DNA of 64,000 nucleotides. Source: Gemmatimonas sp. (GTDB lineage: Bacteria; Gemmatimonadota; Gemmatimonadetes; Gemmatimonadales; Gemmatimonadaceae). The position numbers were made by a program, and so were the translations under genes. Below the pieces are notes generated by a model. The model was given only the letters and a program-made list of their open reading frames with translations. It searched no databases and was not told the DNA's origin. The stretch is taken from positions 2,848,001 to 2,912,000 of the forward strand of contig OZ257156.1 in the NCBI GenBank assembly GCA_965279375.1. The letters are read 5' to 3'. This document shows, one piece after another, positions 20,765 through 28,050 of this stretch (the stretch's first letter is position 1; every line of letters starts with the position of its first letter).

Positions 20765-21193
20765 ATGCTGAGTCCGAAGCGGGTCAAATTCCGCAAGATG
20801 TTCAAGGGCCGTATGACCGGCCTGGCGTACCGCGGAGCCGAGGTGTCCTTCGGGACGTATGGGCTCAAGGCGATGGAGCCGGGTTGGGTCACGAGCCGTC
20901 AGATCGAAGCAGCCCGTGTGGCGCTCACGCGTCACATCAAGCGTGGCGGCAAGGTGTGGATCCGGATTTTCCCGGACAAGCCGATCACGAAGAAGCCGGC
21001 CGAAACGCGCATGGGTAAGGGCAAGGGATCGCCCGAAATGTGGGTGGCGGTGGTGAAGCCGGGCCGTGTGATGTTCGAGCTCGAGGGCGTGACGCGCGAA
21101 GTGGCCGAATCGGCCATGGCGCTGGCGGCCGCGAAGATGGGTGTGAAGACCAAGTTCGTCGTACGCGAGGAGGCGGTGACCGATGAAGGCTGA
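20765..21193 (+). CDS. rplP: 50S ribosomal protein L16
   Basis: [22 protein letters not shown]. Confidence 0.99.
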
Positions 21194-21470
21194 TGAGATC
21201 CGCGGACTGGCTGACGCCGAAGTGACGGCCAAGATCGCCGAGTTGGAGGAGGAGCGCTTTCGGCTTCGCTTCCGCAGTGGGACGGAAGCGCTGGAGGAGC
21301 CGCTGCGGCTCCGCAGCATCCGCAGGGACATCGCGCGCCTGCAGACAGTGCTGCGGGAGCGTGCGCTCGGGCTCAAGCGTGGCGTGAGTGCGCCTGCGCC
21401 TGTCGCAAAGAAGGCGCCCGCCAAGAAGGCGGCAGCGAAGAAGGCCCCTTCTAAGGCCCGCAGCCGCTAA
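21183..21470 (+). CDS. rpmC: 50S ribosomal protein L29 with an Ala/Lys-rich C-terminal tail
   Basis: FRLRF...[14 protein letters not shown]; operon position. Confidence 0.95.
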
Positions 21471-22588: not shown

Positions 22589-23383
22589 ATGGCGACCAAG
22601 GAAAAGGCCGGCGCGAAGTCCGGCGGCAAGGCAGCAGCAGGTGGCAAGGGTGGCGCAGCCAAGGGCGGCGCGGCCAAGGGTGGAGCGGGCGCATCGAAGG
22701 GTGGCAAGGGCGGCAAGGCCGGCCAGCCGCGCGCGGCGCAGGACTTCACCAAGCGTGAGCATGCGGGTGCGGGCCTCCCGGTGGCGGCCCCCCGTTTGAA
22801 GACGCACTACGAGAGCACGGTCCGCGCGGCGCTGGCGAAGCAGTTCGGCTTCACCAACACGCATCAGATTCCGGAGCTGTCGAAGATCGTGATCAACTGC
22901 GGCGTCGGCGAAGCGGTCAAGCAGCCCAAGCTGCTCGACGTGGTGGTCGAAGAGCTGGCGCTGATCACCGGTCAGAAGCCGGTGCGTCGCAAGGCCAAGA
23001 AGTCGATCTCGAACTTCGGCCTGCGCGAAGGGCAGGAGATCGGTGCGTCGGTGACGATGCGCGGCGCGCGCATGTGGGAGTTCCTCGATCGCTTCGTGAC
23101 GGTGTGCTGCCCGCGTATCCGCGATTTCCGCGGTCTGGGCACGCGTTCGTTCGACGGTCGTGGCAACTACACGCTCGGCATCAAGGAGCAGACGATCTTT
23201 CCGGAGATCAGCTATGATGCGATCGAGTCGATCCACGGCATGGACATCACGTTCGTGACGACGGCGGCGAAGGACGAGCATTCGTTCGCGCTGCTGCATC
23301 AGCTGGGCATGCCGTTCAAGGGCGACGACAAGCCGGTGATCCCCAAGGTGGCGCAGCCGTCGGCCGCGGCCGTCGCGGCGTAA
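22589..23383 (+). CDS. rplE: 50S ribosomal protein L5 with a Gly/Lys-rich N-terminal extension
   Basis: KIVINCGVG, PRIRDFRG, FDGRGNY, IFPEI. Confidence 0.97.
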   Translation: MATKEKAGAKSGGKAAAGGKGGAAKGGAAKGGAGASKGGKGGKAGQPRAAQDFTKREHAGAGLPVAAPRLKTHYESTVRAALAKQFGFTNTHQIPELSKIVINCGVGEAVKQPKLLDVVVEELALITGQKPVRRKAKKSISNFGLREGQEIGASVTMRGARMWEFLDRFVTVCCPRIRDFRGLGTRSFDGRGNYTLGIKEQTIFPEISYDAIESIHGMDITFVTTAAKDEHSFALLHQLGMPFKGDDKPVIPKVAQPSAAAVAA

Positions 23384-23407
23384 GCTCAACTACCGAGAAC
23401 TGATTCC

Positions 23408-23713
23408 ATGGCGAAGACGAGCAAGTTGGCCCGCAATGCGCAGCGCAAGGAACTGGTCGCCCGTTTCGCGACCAAGCGCGCCGCATTGAAGGCTGTGATC
23501 CAGAACCCGAAGAGCACGCAGGAAGAGAAGCTGGTCGCGATCAATGCGCTGCATAAGATGCCGCGCGACTCGTCGGCCACCCGGGTGCGCAACCGCTGCA
23601 GCATGAGCGGCCGTCCCCGTGCTTATCTTCGTACCTTCGGTTTGAGCCGCATCGCCTTGCGCGATATGGCGCTGAACGGCCTGATTCCGGGCGTACGCAA
23701 GGCCAGCTGGTAG
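23408..23713 (+). CDS. rpsN: 30S ribosomal protein S14, long Zn-independent (C-) form
   Basis: 101 aa; [11 protein letters not shown]...FGLSRIALR...IPGVRKASW; only one Cys. Confidence 0.96.
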
Positions 23714-23771
23714 TATCCCGATAACAGCTTTGTCGCTCGCACGCCGGCAGCGACTGGTTGTTCCTTTTTCA

Positions 23772-23807
23772 TTCCTAAAGGTCTGCTTCGCGCAGATACC
23801 ATAGGAG
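23772..23807 (+). promoter_or_regulatory. Candidate S8-binding ribosomal leader (16S helix-21 mimic) sequestering the rpsH Shine-Dalgarno
   Basis: TTCCTA-A-AGGTCTGC-TTCGC-GCAGATACC-A-TAGGAG; core AGGUC/GAUACC parallels the rRNA S8 site. Confidence 0.65.
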
Positions 23808-23819
23808 CCGGAAGACGTC

Positions 23820-24221
23820 ATGAGTATGAACGATCCCATCGCGGACATGCTGACTCGACTGCGCAATGCATGCGCGTCGAAGCATCGCCGCGTCGACATG
23901 CCGCTCTCGAAGATCAAGGTCGAGATTGCGCGCGTCCTCAAGGAAAACAACTTCATCCAGGACTACCGCACGGTTGAACTGGAAGATGGCAAGCACGCCC
24001 TGCGCGTGATTCTCAAGTACGCGCACGGCGGCCAGTCGGTCATCCGTGAGGCGAAGCGCATTTCGACGCCGGGTCTGCGGAAGTACGTGGGCGCGATGGA
24101 GATCCCGCGCGTGCGCAACGGTCTCGGCATGGCGATCCTCAGCACGTCGAAGGGCATCATGTGCGGACGTACGGCGCGCTCCACCAACACCGGGGGCGAA
24201 TTGCTCGCCCTCGTCTGGTAA
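23820..24221 (+). CDS. rpsH: 30S ribosomal protein S8
   Basis: [33 protein letters not shown]. Confidence 0.99.
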
Positions 24222-24232
24222 GGGACGCTCTC

Positions 24233-24771
<539 letters not shown>

Positions 24772-24772
<1 letters not shown>

Positions 24773-25128
24773 TGGCCAAGATCGCGATCCCGCGTACCAA
24801 TGCAGAGCGGCGTGCGCGCCGCCACCTGCGGGTGCGCAAAGCGGTGAACGGTACGGCGGAGCGTCCGCGTCTGGTGGTGTTCCGTTCGCTGAAGCACATC
24901 TACGCCCAGATCGTGGACGACGTCACGCAGAAGACGTTGATGACGGTCGGCGACGAGAAGATGGAAGGCACGAAGTCCGAGCGCGCGCTCGCCGTGGGCA
25001 AGTCGGTCGCGGAGAAGGCGAAGGCGGCGGGTATCGCCAAGGTCGTGTTCGATCGCGCTGGTTACCAATACCACGGCCGCGTGAAGGCTGTGGCCGATGG
25101 CGCCCGCGAGGGAGGCCTGGAGTTCTGA
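24772..25128 (+). CDS. rplR: 50S ribosomal protein L18
   Basis: [27 protein letters not shown]. Confidence 0.98.
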
Positions 25129-25943
25129 TGATGGCAAACGCAGCAGGTTCAGGTGGCGCGCCCGGCGGCAGCGCCCGTAGCGGTGGTGGTCCTGGCGGCC
25201 GTGGTCGTGGTGGCCCGGGCGGCGGTCGTGGCGGCCCAGGTGGCGGTCGCGGTCGTGGTCCCGGCGGCCCGGGTGGCCCCGGCGGTCCCGGTGGTGGTCG
25301 TGGGCGCGGTCCGGGTGGCGAAGGCGGCCCGGCCGGCCGTGATGGTCGTGGGCGTGGCGGGGACGGCGGTCGTCCCGGTCAGGAACGCGAGCAGAGCGAT
25401 CTGGTAGAAAACGTGATCGCGATCAATCGCGTCGCGAAGGTCGTAAAGGGTGGTCGTCGTTTCTCGTTCAACGCGCTCGTCGCGGTGGGCGATGGTCAGG
25501 GTAAGGTTGGCTTTGCCACCGGCAAGGCGAACGAAGTCTCCGAAGCGGTGCGCAAGGCGGTTGATGCCGCGCGTCGCAACATGGTGACGATCCCGCTGAC
25601 CGGTTCGACGATCCCGCATGAAGTCGTGGGCAAGCATGGCGCCGGCAAGGTGTTGATGAAGCCGGCCGCGCCTGGTGCTGGTGTGATTGCTGGTGGTGCG
25701 GTGCGCGCGGTGCTCGAGTGCGCAGGCGTCCACGACATTCTCACCAAGTCGCTCGGCTCCACGAATCCGCACAACATGGTGCTGGCGGCGCTGGACGGCC
25801 TGACGCATCTGATCACGGTTGAGCAGGCTGCCAAGGAACGCGGCATCGAAGTTTCGCAGATCGACTACAAGTCGCGTGCGAAGTCGCGGACCGAAGTGGC
25901 TGACCATCGCAAGGCTGCCGTCACGGCGGCGGGAGTGGCGTAA
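25128..25943 (+). CDS. rpsE: 30S ribosomal protein S5 with a long RGG/Gly-Pro N-terminal extension
   Basis: [30 protein letters not shown]. Confidence 0.96.
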
Positions 25944-26197
25944 TGGCTCGCACATTCGTGTGGCATCCGTCGAAGGGTCCGGCCACGACGCCGAAGGATC
26001 AGGCGCCGACGGCTGGTTTGGTTCTGATCACGCAGGTGCGCAGCGGCATTGGCCATTCGTGGCGCATGCTCCGCACGCTCGAGGCGATCGGACTCAAGCA
26101 TCATCAGGCTAGCGTCGTGCAGCAGGATTCCGCCTCGCTGCGCGGTCAGCTCAAGAAGGTTCGTCACCTGGTGTCAGTGACGCCGGTGGAGGGGTAA
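25943..26197 (+). CDS. rpmD: 50S ribosomal protein L30
   Basis: ITQVRSGIG...TLEAIGL...RGQLKKVRHLV; position. Confidence 0.93.
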   Translation: MARTFVWHPSKGPATTPKDQAPTAGLVLITQVRSGIGHSWRMLRTLEAIGLKHHQASVVQQDSASLRGQLKKVRHLVSVTPVEG

Positions 26198-26200
26198 CTC

Positions 26201-26686
26201 GTGGCTACGAAGAACAGCGGCGCCGAAGGCGCCGAGAAGATCGGACTGCACAACCTTGCGCCGGCTCCGGGCTCGCACCGGAACCGCAAGCGCATCGGTC
26301 GCGGTCCTGGCTCCGGCACCGGCAAGACGTCCGGCAAGGGTCACAAGGGTTCCATGGCGCGTTCTGGCCACGGCGGTCCTGGTGGCGGCAAGCCGCACTT
26401 CGAAGGCGGCCAGATGCCGATCACGCGTCGCATTCCGAAGCGCGGGTTTACGAACCCGTTCAAGGAGTATGCGCAGGAAGTGCGTCTCGATTCGCTGGCG
26501 CAGTTGGCTGGCGATGAAGTGACGACGGAAGCGCTGGTCGCCGCGGGCTTGATCCGCGACGGGCACGGTCCGGCCAAGCTGCTCGCGAACGGCGATGTGC
26601 CGCGCGCGTTCACGGTGAAGGGCGTGAAGTTGAGCGCCGGCGCCAAAGCGAAGATCGAAGCGGCCGGTGGCCGCGTCGACGGCTGA
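26201..26686 (+). CDS. rplO: 50S ribosomal protein L15
   Basis: RIGRGPGSGTGKT, FEGGQMP, PKRGF. Confidence 0.98.
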   Translation: MATKNSGAEGAEKIGLHNLAPAPGSHRNRKRIGRGPGSGTGKTSGKGHKGSMARSGHGGPGGGKPHFEGGQMPITRRIPKRGFTNPFKEYAQEVRLDSLAQLAGDEVTTEALVAAGLIRDGHGPAKLLANGDVPRAFTVKGVKLSAGAKAKIEAAGGRVDG

Positions 26687-26703
26687 GGGAGAGCCCCCGG
26701 CGC

Positions 26704-28050
26704 ATGGCAGAGCAGAACAACAAGGCGGCGCAGGCCGTCGCCAACATCTACCAGACGCCTGAACTCTGGGCGAAGATCGTATTCACCTTCGTGTGTTTGC
26801 TGATCTATCGCACCGGTGCGCATATCACCGCGCCCGGCATCGACGTTCAGGCGCTGACGGATTATTTCGCACGGCAGCAGGGCGGCGGACTTCTGGGTCT
26901 GTATGACCTGTTCGTGGGTGGCGGCTTGTCTCGCGCCACCGTGTTCGCGCTCGGCATCATGCCGTACATCTCTGCGAGCATCTTCATCCAGATCGCCGGT
27001 GCGGTGTTGCCGACGGTCGACAAGATGCAGAAGGACGAAGAAGGGCGGAAAAAGCTGACCCAGTACACGCGCTACCTCACGGTGGTGCTGGCGCTGGTGC
27101 AGGCATACGGTTTCGCCCTCTTCACCGCGTCACTGCCGGCGGCTGTCTCCCGTCCGGGGCCGACGTTCATCATCCAGATGATGCTCTTCCTCACCACGGG
27201 CGCGATTTTCGTCATGTGGCTGGGCGAGCAGATCACCGAGCGTGGCCTGGGTAACGGTGCGTCGCTGATCATCTTCTTCTCGATCGTCGAGCGCATGTGG
27301 CCCGCGATCCTGCAGACGTTCAACTTCGTCACGACGGGCGCGATCGCGCCGCTGTCGCTGGTGGTGTTGGCGCTGGTGATGGTCGGTGTCGTGGCTGGCG
27401 TGGTGGCCATCACCGTGGCTGCCCGTCGCGTGCTGATCCAGATCCCGCAGCGCACGATGGCGCGCGGTCGTCAGCGTGAAGCGGCTCGCAACTTCATTCC
27501 GCTGCGCATCAACACGGCCGGCGTGATGCCGATCATCTTCGCTCAGTCGGTGATCGTGATTCCCGGTGCGATCGCGCAGTTCAGCGGGAACGCCAAGGCG
27601 CAGGAAATTGCGGAGTACTTCAATCCGCAGGGTCCGAATCCGTGGCTCTATTTTGTCCTGTCGGCCATCCTCATCCTGCTGTTCACGTACTTCTACACCT
27701 CGATCATCTTCAATCCGGTCGACCTGGCCGAGAACCTGAAGAAGCAGGGCGGGTTCGTGCCGGGCATCAAGCCGGGCGCGAAGACGGCGGAATACATCGA
27801 GCAGGTGGTGGAGCGTATCACGCTTCCCGGCGCGATCTTCCTGACGTTCATCGCTCTGATGCCGATCGTGATTGCCCGTCTGGTCAACGTTCCCTTCGCG
27901 TTCGGCGGCACGTCGCTGCTGATCGTCGTGGGTGTGGCGCTCGACACGATGGCGCAGATGCAGCAGCACCTGTTGCTGCGCAAGTACGACGGCTTCATGA
28001 AGAAGGGCCGTGTCCGCTTCCGCGGACGTCAGGCGACCGGTGGCTTCTAG
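26704..28050 (+). CDS. secY: Preprotein translocase subunit SecY
   Basis: FALGIMPYISASI, WLGEQITERG, GVMPIIFA, GGTSLLIVVGV. Confidence 0.99.
   Translation: MAEQNNKAAQAVANIYQTPELWAKIVFTFVCLLIYRTGAHITAPGIDVQALTDYFARQQGGGLLGLYDLFVGGGLSRATVFALGIMPYISASIFIQIAGAVLPTVDKMQKDEEGRKKLTQYTRYLTVVLALVQAYGFALFTASLPAAVSRPGPTFIIQMMLFLTTGAIFVMWLGEQITERGLGNGASLIIFFSIVERMWPAILQTFNFVTTGAIAPLSLVVLALVMVGVVAGVVAITVAARRVLIQIPQRTMARGRQREAARNFIPLRINTAGVMPIIFAQSVIVIPGAIAQFSGNAKAQEIAEYFNPQGPNPWLYFVLSAILILLFTYFYTSIIFNPVDLAENLKKQGGFVPGIKPGAKTAEYIEQVVERITLPGAIFLTFIALMPIVIARLVNVPFAFGGTSLLIVVGVALDTMAQMQQHLLLRKYDGFMKKGRVRFRGRQATGGF

What the first reader, a model, noticed from the sequence alone, without database searches (positions are those of the whole stretch)
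23772..23807. Candidate novel S8 ribosomal leader: 16S helix-21 mimic hiding the rpsH Shine-Dalgarno
Seen: a hairpin with TTCCTA/TAGGAG (containing the SD AGGAG) under AGGTCTGC-loop-GCAGATACC. Known: the S8 site in E. coli 16S h21 is A595-A596-G597-U598-C599 / G639-A640-U641-A642-C643-U644. The leader reproduces it base for base with a compensatory G-C at 596-644, including the bulged A and the UA bulge. E. coli's S8 operator lies at the start of rplE; here the mimic sits directly in front of rpsH. A second hairpin with a U-rich tail precedes it (about 23722-23769). Inference: independently evolved S8 feedback control.
Basis: partly seen in the sequence, partly recalled or inferred. Interest (0 to 1): 0.78.

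Follow-up and report, generated by a model that had tools for sequence, protein, structure and literature searches.

The report
S8 feedback RNA before rpsH, Gemmatimonadota
A small conserved RNA hairpin in front of the gene for ribosomal protein S8 copies the spot on ribosomal RNA where S8 docks, so S8 very probably uses it to limit its own synthesis, a control so far published for bacteria only in E. coli and its kin and there at a different gene.

Summary
Confirmed. The hairpin at 23772-23807 precedes rpsH in a Gemmatimonadaceae genome and reproduces the S8 site of 16S helix 21. It occurs in 117 of 139 family rpsH loci and in 47 of 50 loci examined from a second order, and almost nowhere else: 116 of 120 genome and 82 of 83 metagenome pattern hits lie just before rpsH. 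RNAalifold finds the helix-21 register unaided; the seven most co-changing of 190 column pairs are all predicted pairs; 596-644 takes A-U, G-C and C-G while G597, A642 and C643 never vary. Corrections: it matches E. coli helix 21 (9 of 11 letters) better than this genome's own (4 of 11); in the second order leader and rRNA cores are identical, so the leader keeps the older letters. The upstream hairpin is not conserved. Likely mechanism (0.8): free S8 stabilises the hairpin over the ribosome-binding site, repressing rpsH and coupled downstream genes; binding and repression are untested. It differs from the E. coli operator in place and strand order; not in Rfam or the papers searched. This scan earlier noted similar hairpins before rpsH in other bacteria (unchecked here).

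The parts
23408..23713 (+). rpsN, long S14 (101 aa, no zinc motif); upstream gene, outside the predicted control
   Evidence: ORF; NCBIfam PRK08881 137 bits over cut-off 77, type Z model below cut-off
23723..23762 (+). Variable upstream hairpin; not part of the conserved element
   Evidence: Folds, z -2.74; a hairpin plus U-run of this form in 2 of 17 genus members, 11 of 17 have 25 nt or less before the leader; single copy in the genome
23763..23771 (+). Pyrimidine-rich flank of the leader (includes the U5 run)
   Evidence: Pyrimidine share of the 10 nt before the stem 0.67 in 115 leaders against 0.48 further upstream; present in relatives that lack the upstream hairpin
23772..23777 (+). Lower stem, 5' strand (anti-SD side)
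   Evidence: Pairs with 23802-23807; double changes in 47, 20, 7 and 8 of 113 distinct rows at four of its pairs
23778..23783 (+). Helix-21 core, 5' strand: positions 594-599 (A594, bulged A595, G596, G597, U598, C599)
   Evidence: Numbering from E. coli 16S; G597 and C599 in 115 of 115, U598 in 114 of 115
23784..23794 (+). Upper stem and apical loop, variable in length and sequence
   Evidence: a close relative in an RNA-library contig carries the compensatory pair of changes at 23784 and 23794
23795..23801 (+). Helix-21 core, 3' strand: G639, A640, bulged U641 and A642, C643, C644, unpaired A645
   Evidence: G639, A640, A642, C643 in 115 of 115 (part of the descriptor that picked them); 641 U 98, A 15, C 2; 596-644 C-G 75, G-C 36, A.C 4
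23802..23807 (+). Lower stem, 3' strand, holding the best Shine-Dalgarno match (AGGAG, 23803-23807), 12 nt before the start codon
   Evidence: -5.7 kcal/mol with this genome's anti-SD against -2.4 for the best site outside the stem; predicted unpaired probability at most 0.03 for 23803-23806
23820..24221 (+). rpsH, ribosomal protein S8: predicted ligand and first regulated gene
   Evidence: NCBIfam PRK00136; 52% identical to E. coli S8; Y89, S108-T109-S110 and E127 in at least 95% of 139 family proteins
24233..28050 (+). [quoted passage not shown]
   Evidence: Identities; gaps of 11, -1, -1, -1, 3 and 17 nt; coupling itself is inferred

Best explanation
An autogenous translational operator for ribosomal protein S8. 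The hairpin in the rpsN-rpsH spacer of the long ribosomal mRNA folds like helix 21 of 16S rRNA (shown by covariation). When S8 is in excess over new rRNA, free S8 binds the mimic with its rRNA-binding surface (inferred from the conserved core) and holds shut a stem that covers the Shine-Dalgarno sequence or lies within the 30S footprint (inferred from geometry), so initiation at rpsH falls and L6, L18, S5, L30, L15 and perhaps SecY follow by translational coupling (inferred from gene packing). L5 and S14 lie upstream and escape direct control, unlike in E. coli. The mismatch at 594.645 may weaken binding relative to rRNA (inference by analogy with the extra bulges of the E. coli operator).
For: Present in 115 of 139 family loci by one descriptor and 2 more by a relaxed one; 28 of 30 and 19 of 20 loci of a second order. 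116 of 120 genome and 82 of 83 metagenome pattern hits lie within 30 nt of an rpsH start. RNAalifold, given no structure, returns the helix-21 register with the 641-642 bulge; 94.5% of cells pair, 167 double changes, 0 of 500 shuffles reach this, slid registers pair 29-53%. On a tree of rpsH coding DNA the 7 column pairs with most shared changes among 190 are all predicted pairs, 596-644 sharing 8 of 8. What is invariant is what S8 reads: A642, G597-C643 and the two base triples (PMC4176348, passages); G595 occurs only with C596-G644 (16 of 16), the triple that paper gives for Thermus. In the second order the leader core equals the cognate 16S core (21 of 29 16S copies); two family members carry the C598-G640, A641 form of their family's rRNA. 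Distance from position 645 to the start codon is 11-24 nt whereas distance to the rpsN stop varies from 3 to 203 nt.
Against: No binding or expression data. The leader differs from this genome's own 16S core at 7 of 11 letters. The SD in the stem is 12 nt from ATG, the longest spacing among 21 starts in the cluster with secY; in 23-30 of 115 members the best SD lies outside the stem, and in the two C598-G640 variants position 645 is 27 and 34 nt from the start. The stem is predicted shut even without S8, so how it opens for normal translation is unexplained. 22 of 139 family loci and whole families lack it, and no relocated site was found in 20 clusters. The strict test on well-supported branches had only 2 independent pairs and cannot reach significance. 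Members were picked by a descriptor that asks for at least 4 of 6 pairs, which leans the pair counts.
Confidence: 0.8

Rival explanations
1. S8 binds the mimic, but the outcome is not a block of initiation: it triggers or prevents mRNA cleavage in the spacer, or changes the stability of the downstream mRNA.
For: SD lies outside the stem in 23-30 of 115 members; the stem is predicted shut without protein; S8 control in E. coli includes mRNA destabilisation of upstream cistrons (PMC10931766, passages); the yeast S8 homologue acts through splicing (PMC13232506, passages).
Against: The element is held at a near-fixed distance from the start codon, 11-24 nt, and its lower stem usually holds the best SD.
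Confidence: 0.1
2. A protein-independent hairpin that couples rpsH translation to rpsN (melted by ribosomes finishing rpsN); likeness to helix 21 is incidental.
For: In several genomes the stem starts 3-10 nt after the rpsN stop; the stem covers the SD.
Against: Distance to the rpsN stop ranges from 3 to 203 nt; such a hairpin has no need for an invariant unpaired A642 or the triple pattern; chance of the geometry is 0.0017 per spacer.
Confidence: 0.04
3. The leader binds another protein of the operon (S14, L6, L18, S5, L30, L15) rather than S8.
For: r-leader ligands are often not encoded by the first downstream gene (PMC7247131 supplement 1, Table S4); the leader differs from the family's own 16S core.
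Against: The conserved letters are those of the S8 site and equal the cognate rRNA site in the second order; the motif occurs with both S14 types (66 of 70 without and 49 of 69 with the zinc motif).
Confidence: 0.04
4. Transcription attenuation: the upstream hairpin and U-run form a terminator that S8 controls.
For: A terminator-like match at 23743-23758; U5 at 23765-23769.
Against: One match found against 0.7 expected by chance; this form in 2 of 17 genus members; the S8 site lies downstream of the U-run and would not yet be made when polymerase decides; contigs from RNA libraries of two studies run across it (not proof of one transcript).
Confidence: 0.02

Closest known systems
S8-interacting RNA (spc operator) of E. 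coli and Gammaproteobacteria (PMC3616713 section 15 read; PMC10931766 passages)
   Same: Helix-21 core with G597-C643, A642 and the 595.(596-644) triple; variable distal stem; lies at a translation start in the spc gene cluster.
   Different: Sits before rpsH in a non-coding spacer, not over the start of rplE; strand order as in rRNA, whereas the E. coli site has the 639-645 strand first (+6 to +12) and the 594-599 strand second (+79 to +84); 36 nt against about 80; L5 and S14 lie outside; other phylum; the leader model does not match the E. coli region.
S8 binding site in helix 21 of 16S rRNA (PMC4176348 passages)
   Same: Same pairing register and bulges; 9 of 11 core letters as in E. coli; core identical to the cognate rRNA in the second order.
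   Different: 594.645 is a mismatch (C.A in 68 of 115, A.A here) instead of U-G; 596-644 is G-C or C-G in this family; stems are short and unrelated to rRNA, and the leader model does not match 16S.
L20-Deltaproteobacteria r-leader (PMC7247131 passages and supplement 1, parts 2-4)
   Same: A lineage-specific rRNA mimic placed inside an operon directly before the gene of its predicted ligand, where E. coli has its operator further upstream.
   Different: Other ligand and structure.
Intron structure of yeast RPS22B (uS8) (PMC13232506 passages)
   Same: Autoregulation of a uS8-family gene through a stem with two bulges likened to helix 21.
   Different: Eukaryotic, acts on splicing; no sequence comparison was made here.

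Membership tests
Gammaproteobacterial spc operator (S8-interacting RNA) | Overlaps the start of rplE and the L5 coding sequence | tested here: not met
   Lies in the rpsN-rpsH spacer; a scan that finds the E. coli site as control finds none at rplE of this genome
Gammaproteobacterial spc operator (S8-interacting RNA) | Strand order reversed relative to rRNA (639-645 strand first) | tested here: not met
   E. coli +6..+12 and +79..+84; the leader has rRNA order
Gammaproteobacterial spc operator (S8-interacting RNA) | Conserved S8 core at the internal bulge, variable distal stem | tested here: met
S8 binding site (helix-21 motif) | G597-C643 pair and invariant unpaired A642 | tested here: met
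   115 of 115 (these letters were part of the descriptor; of the 24 loci not picked, 2 carry them in a variant core and the rest show no convincing core); 47 of 47 in the second order
S8 binding site (helix-21 motif) | 596-644 pair with bulged 595 (base triple) and two-base bulge 641-642 | tested here: met
   Secondary structure; G595 only with C-G, 16 of 16. The triples in three dimensions were not modelled
S8 binding site (helix-21 motif) | 594-645 paired, as in 16S | tested here: not met
   A.A here; C.A 68, C-G 16, A.A 12, C.C 8, U-G 3 and others among 115
S8 binding site (helix-21 motif) | Binds S8 specifically | not testable with these tools
   Needs gel shift or footprint; the protein's RNA-contact residues are conserved
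Ribosomal leader (r-leader) | Consistently upstream of ribosomal protein genes | tested here: met
   116 of 120 and 82 of 83 pattern hits before rpsH; all 24 model hits with E below 0.001 in 150 phylum genomes adjoin rpsH, most of them training members
Ribosomal leader (r-leader) | Secondary structure supported by covariation | tested here: met
   R-scape was not available; the strict independent-pairs test was underpowered
Ribosomal leader (r-leader) | Present on the mRNA of the regulated genes | tested here: inconclusive
   Contigs from two RNA libraries bridge rpsN, spacer and rpsH, but contigs show no single transcript and may hold DNA; no promoter-like site in 23300-23900
Ribosomal leader (r-leader) | Ligand lowers expression of the operon | not testable with these tools
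   Needs reporter or toeprint
Any Rfam family (release 15) | Match to a curated model | tested here: not met
   0 hits in the window at gathering score; 0 at E up to 10 in 23650-23900
Intrinsic terminator (upstream hairpin) | Conserved hairpin plus U-run | tested here: not met
   Weak match at chance level; 2 of 17 genus members

The most novel reading that the evidence does not exclude
The element is an old S8 operator that predates the split of two Gemmatimonadota orders and has kept the ancestral helix-21 letters after the family's own rRNA changed them, so one S8 protein now reads two diverged versions of its site; and a helix-21 mimic directly before rpsH, which this scan also noted (unchecked) in Clostridia and others, is a recurrent or ancestral way to control the spc genes outside Gammaproteobacteria, the E. 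coli arrangement being the special case.
Probability: 0.4. Interest if true: 0.8.

Novelty: new variant of a known kind. Interest (0 to 1): 0.64.

Why it matters
A 2024 review states that control of the spc operon outside E. coli and V. cholerae is unknown and that its phylogeny has not been advanced (PMC10931766, passages); a 2020 list of known r-leaders gives S8 for Gammaproteobacteria only (PMC7247131 Table S1). This element offers a 36-nt, non-coding, directly testable S8 operator in another phylum, with a different place and strand order, hence a separate solution to the same feedback problem. About 160 natural variants map which substitutions the S8 site tolerates, free of coding constraint, and the leader-rRNA divergence in this family is a natural experiment on mimicry. 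The alignment is ready to become an RNA family.

Tried and rejected
Rfam: no match. Fragment of rRNA: rejected, the leader model does not match four kinds of 16S loci given to it and the stems differ. Upstream hairpin as repeat or conserved terminator: single copy, not conserved. Internal promoter: no sigma-70-like site in 23300-23900 (consensus scan only). Relocated S8 site in motif-negative lineages: 20 clusters of about 10 kb scanned in both strand orders gave scattered hits, mostly in coding DNA, and none shared at a start except the two variant leaders before rpsH. Link to S14 type: motif occurs with both. Other phyla: no model hit in 59 rpsH loci, 29 from the phylum of G397 (record titled Acidobacteriota) and 30 from that of G398 (record titled Planctomycetota); two descriptor hits fell in rpsN coding DNA. 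Independent-pairs test: too few supported branches. The first E. coli 16S fetched was an unusual copy with A641; a mid-ranked copy gave the published letters. The phylum-wide model search uses strict filters and missed known positives G108 and G251, so its blanks are weak. RNA runs were contigs only and give no start, end or level. Papers PMC1370587 and PMC11633770 were not held; I did not see them. PMC12873609 and PMC1913097: searched for rpsH and S8 terms in the main text, none found; their supplements were not searched and may bear on novelty.

Full report
Setting. The window holds the S10-spc ribosomal gene cluster of a single-contig 5.3-Mb genome. Public records carrying the same motif are titled Gemmatimonadota in 115 of 120 cases, 85 of them Gemmatimonadaceae, so I call the genome's family f1 Gemmatimonadaceae. 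The finding lies in the 106-nt spacer between rpsN (23408-23713) and rpsH (23820-24221).

Observation. The hairpin is there as described and folds better than 198 of 200 shuffles, though the wider 131-nt region does not stand out. With numbering checked on a mid-ranked E. coli 16S copy (the first copy fetched was atypical), window positions 23779-23783 are 595-599 and 23795-23800 are 639-644. Nine of these 11 letters equal E. coli; 596-644 is G-C for A-U. Positions 594 and 645 are an A.A mismatch, where 16S has U-G. A descriptor of the helix-21 geometry, written after I had seen the leader but without its own letters, hits 170 places in the genome, 0.0017 per spacer of this size; it hits both 16S copies and, within the 15-kb cluster, only this hairpin. 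Rfam has no match.

Conservation. I collected 139 rpsH loci of the family: 15 from the genus search and 124 of the 126 other genomes matched in the family draw, two unpublished ones left out. One descriptor found the motif in 115, in 57 of 66 genera; a relaxed one added G081 and G140, giving 117; 22 lack it, several with spacers under 30 nt. It was not found in 12 plus 14 loci of the two sister families f2 and f3, nor in 25 loci of families f5-f7 and f9-f12. It was found in a second order of the class (no name given by the tools; from recall probably Longimicrobiales): 28 of 30 loci, chosen as the 29 best S8 matches among 113 plus G251 (f8 23 of 24, the miss having withheld bases; f4 5 of 5; f7 0 of 1), and 19 of 20 further f4 loci. 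A covariance model trained on family f1 alone scored 8 of 8 of these held-out leaders at E 1e-5 or better and 18 of 20 more at E below 1e-5, so the two sets are one family. In 150 phylum genomes all 24 hits below E 0.001 adjoin rpsH; most were training members, three were new (G277, G242, and G246, an unpublished genome). No match was found in 59 rpsH loci from two other phyla.

Structure. RNAalifold, given no structure, returns the helix-21 register: lower stem, 596-644 and 597-643 pairs, two-base bulge 641-642, upper stem. On 113 distinct rows 94.5% of cells pair and 167 show a change on both sides; none of 500 shuffles reaches either, and slid registers pair 29-53%. The rows are kin and were picked for at least 4 of 6 pairs, so I also counted shared changes on a tree of rpsH coding DNA: of 190 column pairs the top 7 are all predicted pairs (596-644 shares 8 of 8 changes; best unpredicted pair 0.6, median 0.25), and the eighth predicted pair, the outermost, ranks 19th. 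The tree is weakly supported and the strict independent-pairs test had 2 pairs only. A close relative in an RNA-library contig shows the compensatory change at 23784 and 23794.

Why S8. PMC4176348 (passages seen) names the determinants: invariant A642, the triple (G597-C643).U641, and the triple 595.(596-644), A.(A-U) in E. coli and G.(C-G) in Thermus. In the leaders G597, A642 and C643 do not vary; 641 is U 98, A 15, C 2; 596-644 is C-G 75, G-C 36, A.C 4 in the family and A-U in all 47 of the second order; G595 occurs only with C-G, 16 of 16. The S8 residues that the paper names as contacts are kept (Y89, S108-T109-S110, E127).

This genome's own 16S has C598-G640, G599-C639 and A641, so the leader shares only 4 of 11 core letters with it. 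Among 29 family 16S copies (of 64 genomes with a match) 16 have that core and 2 the leader's; among 29 copies of the second order (of 56) all have GUC at 597-599 and 21 have exactly the core of their leaders. The simplest reading is that the leader keeps the older helix-21 letters while the family's rRNA moved (inference). G081 and G140 have moved their leader to C598-G640 and A641, the family's rRNA state, which shows that leader variation follows what the rRNA site allows.

Mechanism. The best Shine-Dalgarno match, at 23803-23807, is in the lower stem (-5.7 against -2.4 kcal/mol outside) and is predicted paired. Across 115 members the best match starts in the stem in 85 or 92, by tie-breaking; where it lies outside, the pyrimidine-rich 5' flank can often pair with it (13 of 23 predicted paired, 3 of 23 without the flank). 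The core is held 11-24 nt from the start codon but 3-203 nt from the rpsN stop. The genes from rpsH to secY are separated by 11, -1, -1, -1, 3 and 17 nt. I therefore take it as a translational operator: free S8 locks the hairpin, initiation at rpsH falls, and coupled genes follow. Structure and position are shown; binding, repression and coupling are inferred. Open points: the SD spacing of 12 nt is long, and the stem is predicted shut without S8.

The upstream hairpin (23723-23762) folds but has this form in 2 of 17 genus members, and its U-run is shared by relatives without it; the terminator match is at chance level; contigs from RNA libraries of two studies cross it (which cannot prove one transcript). 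I do not count it as part of the element.

Comparison. The E. coli operator overlaps the rplE start (PMC3616713, section 15 read) and has the two strands in reversed order, +6 to +12 first and +79 to +84 second; the leader model matches neither it nor 16S. So this works like the spc operator but is not a member of that family. PMC10931766 (passages) says regulation outside E. coli and V. cholerae is unknown; Table S1 of PMC7247131 (supplement 1, parts 2-4 read) lists S8 for Gammaproteobacteria only, and none of its new motifs is for S8. Eight full-text searches showed no S8 leader before rpsH and none in Gemmatimonadota; subscription papers and most supplements were not covered. This scan's earlier notes report helix-21 mimics before rpsH in other genomes, two of them Clostridia, and before rplC in CPR bacteria; none lists Gemmatimonadota or resembles this sequence, and I did not test them.

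Verdict. A real, conserved, covarying RNA; very probably an S8-binding operator; a new variant of a known kind. Interest 0.64.

Noticed in passing
window 23408-23713 and family loci L003-L153: The S14 gene at this position lacks the zinc motif in 70 and has it in 69 of 139 family loci, uniformly within each genus (28 against 38 genera), which suggests repeated replacement in place.
   Followed up: partly
L495-L498 (family f7): rpsN is missing between rplE and rpsH in 4 of 4 clusters of family f7, which also lacks the leader.
   Followed up: no
L008:1940-2135, L012:1940-2107, L013:1302-1460, L310: A conserved insert of about 110-130 nt upstream of the leader in four genus members; no Rfam match at E up to 0.1.
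   Followed up: partly
L564, L566, L569 (phylum of G397): A different conserved hairpin directly before rpsH in 3 of 29 loci of this phylum; it does not fit the helix-21 descriptor or the leader model.
   Followed up: no
window 22589-22790, 25128-25395, 21183-21470: L5 and S5 carry long glycine-rich N-terminal extensions (profile matches start at residues 68 and 90) and L29 a lysine-alanine-rich C-terminal tail.
   Followed up: no
family loci L035-L149: Many rpsN-rpsH spacers hold long palindromic inserts built of short repeats upstream of the leader, different from genus to genus.
   Followed up: no
L153 (G100): rpsH matches in two pieces, as if frameshifted, behind an intact leader; possibly an assembly error.
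   Followed up: no
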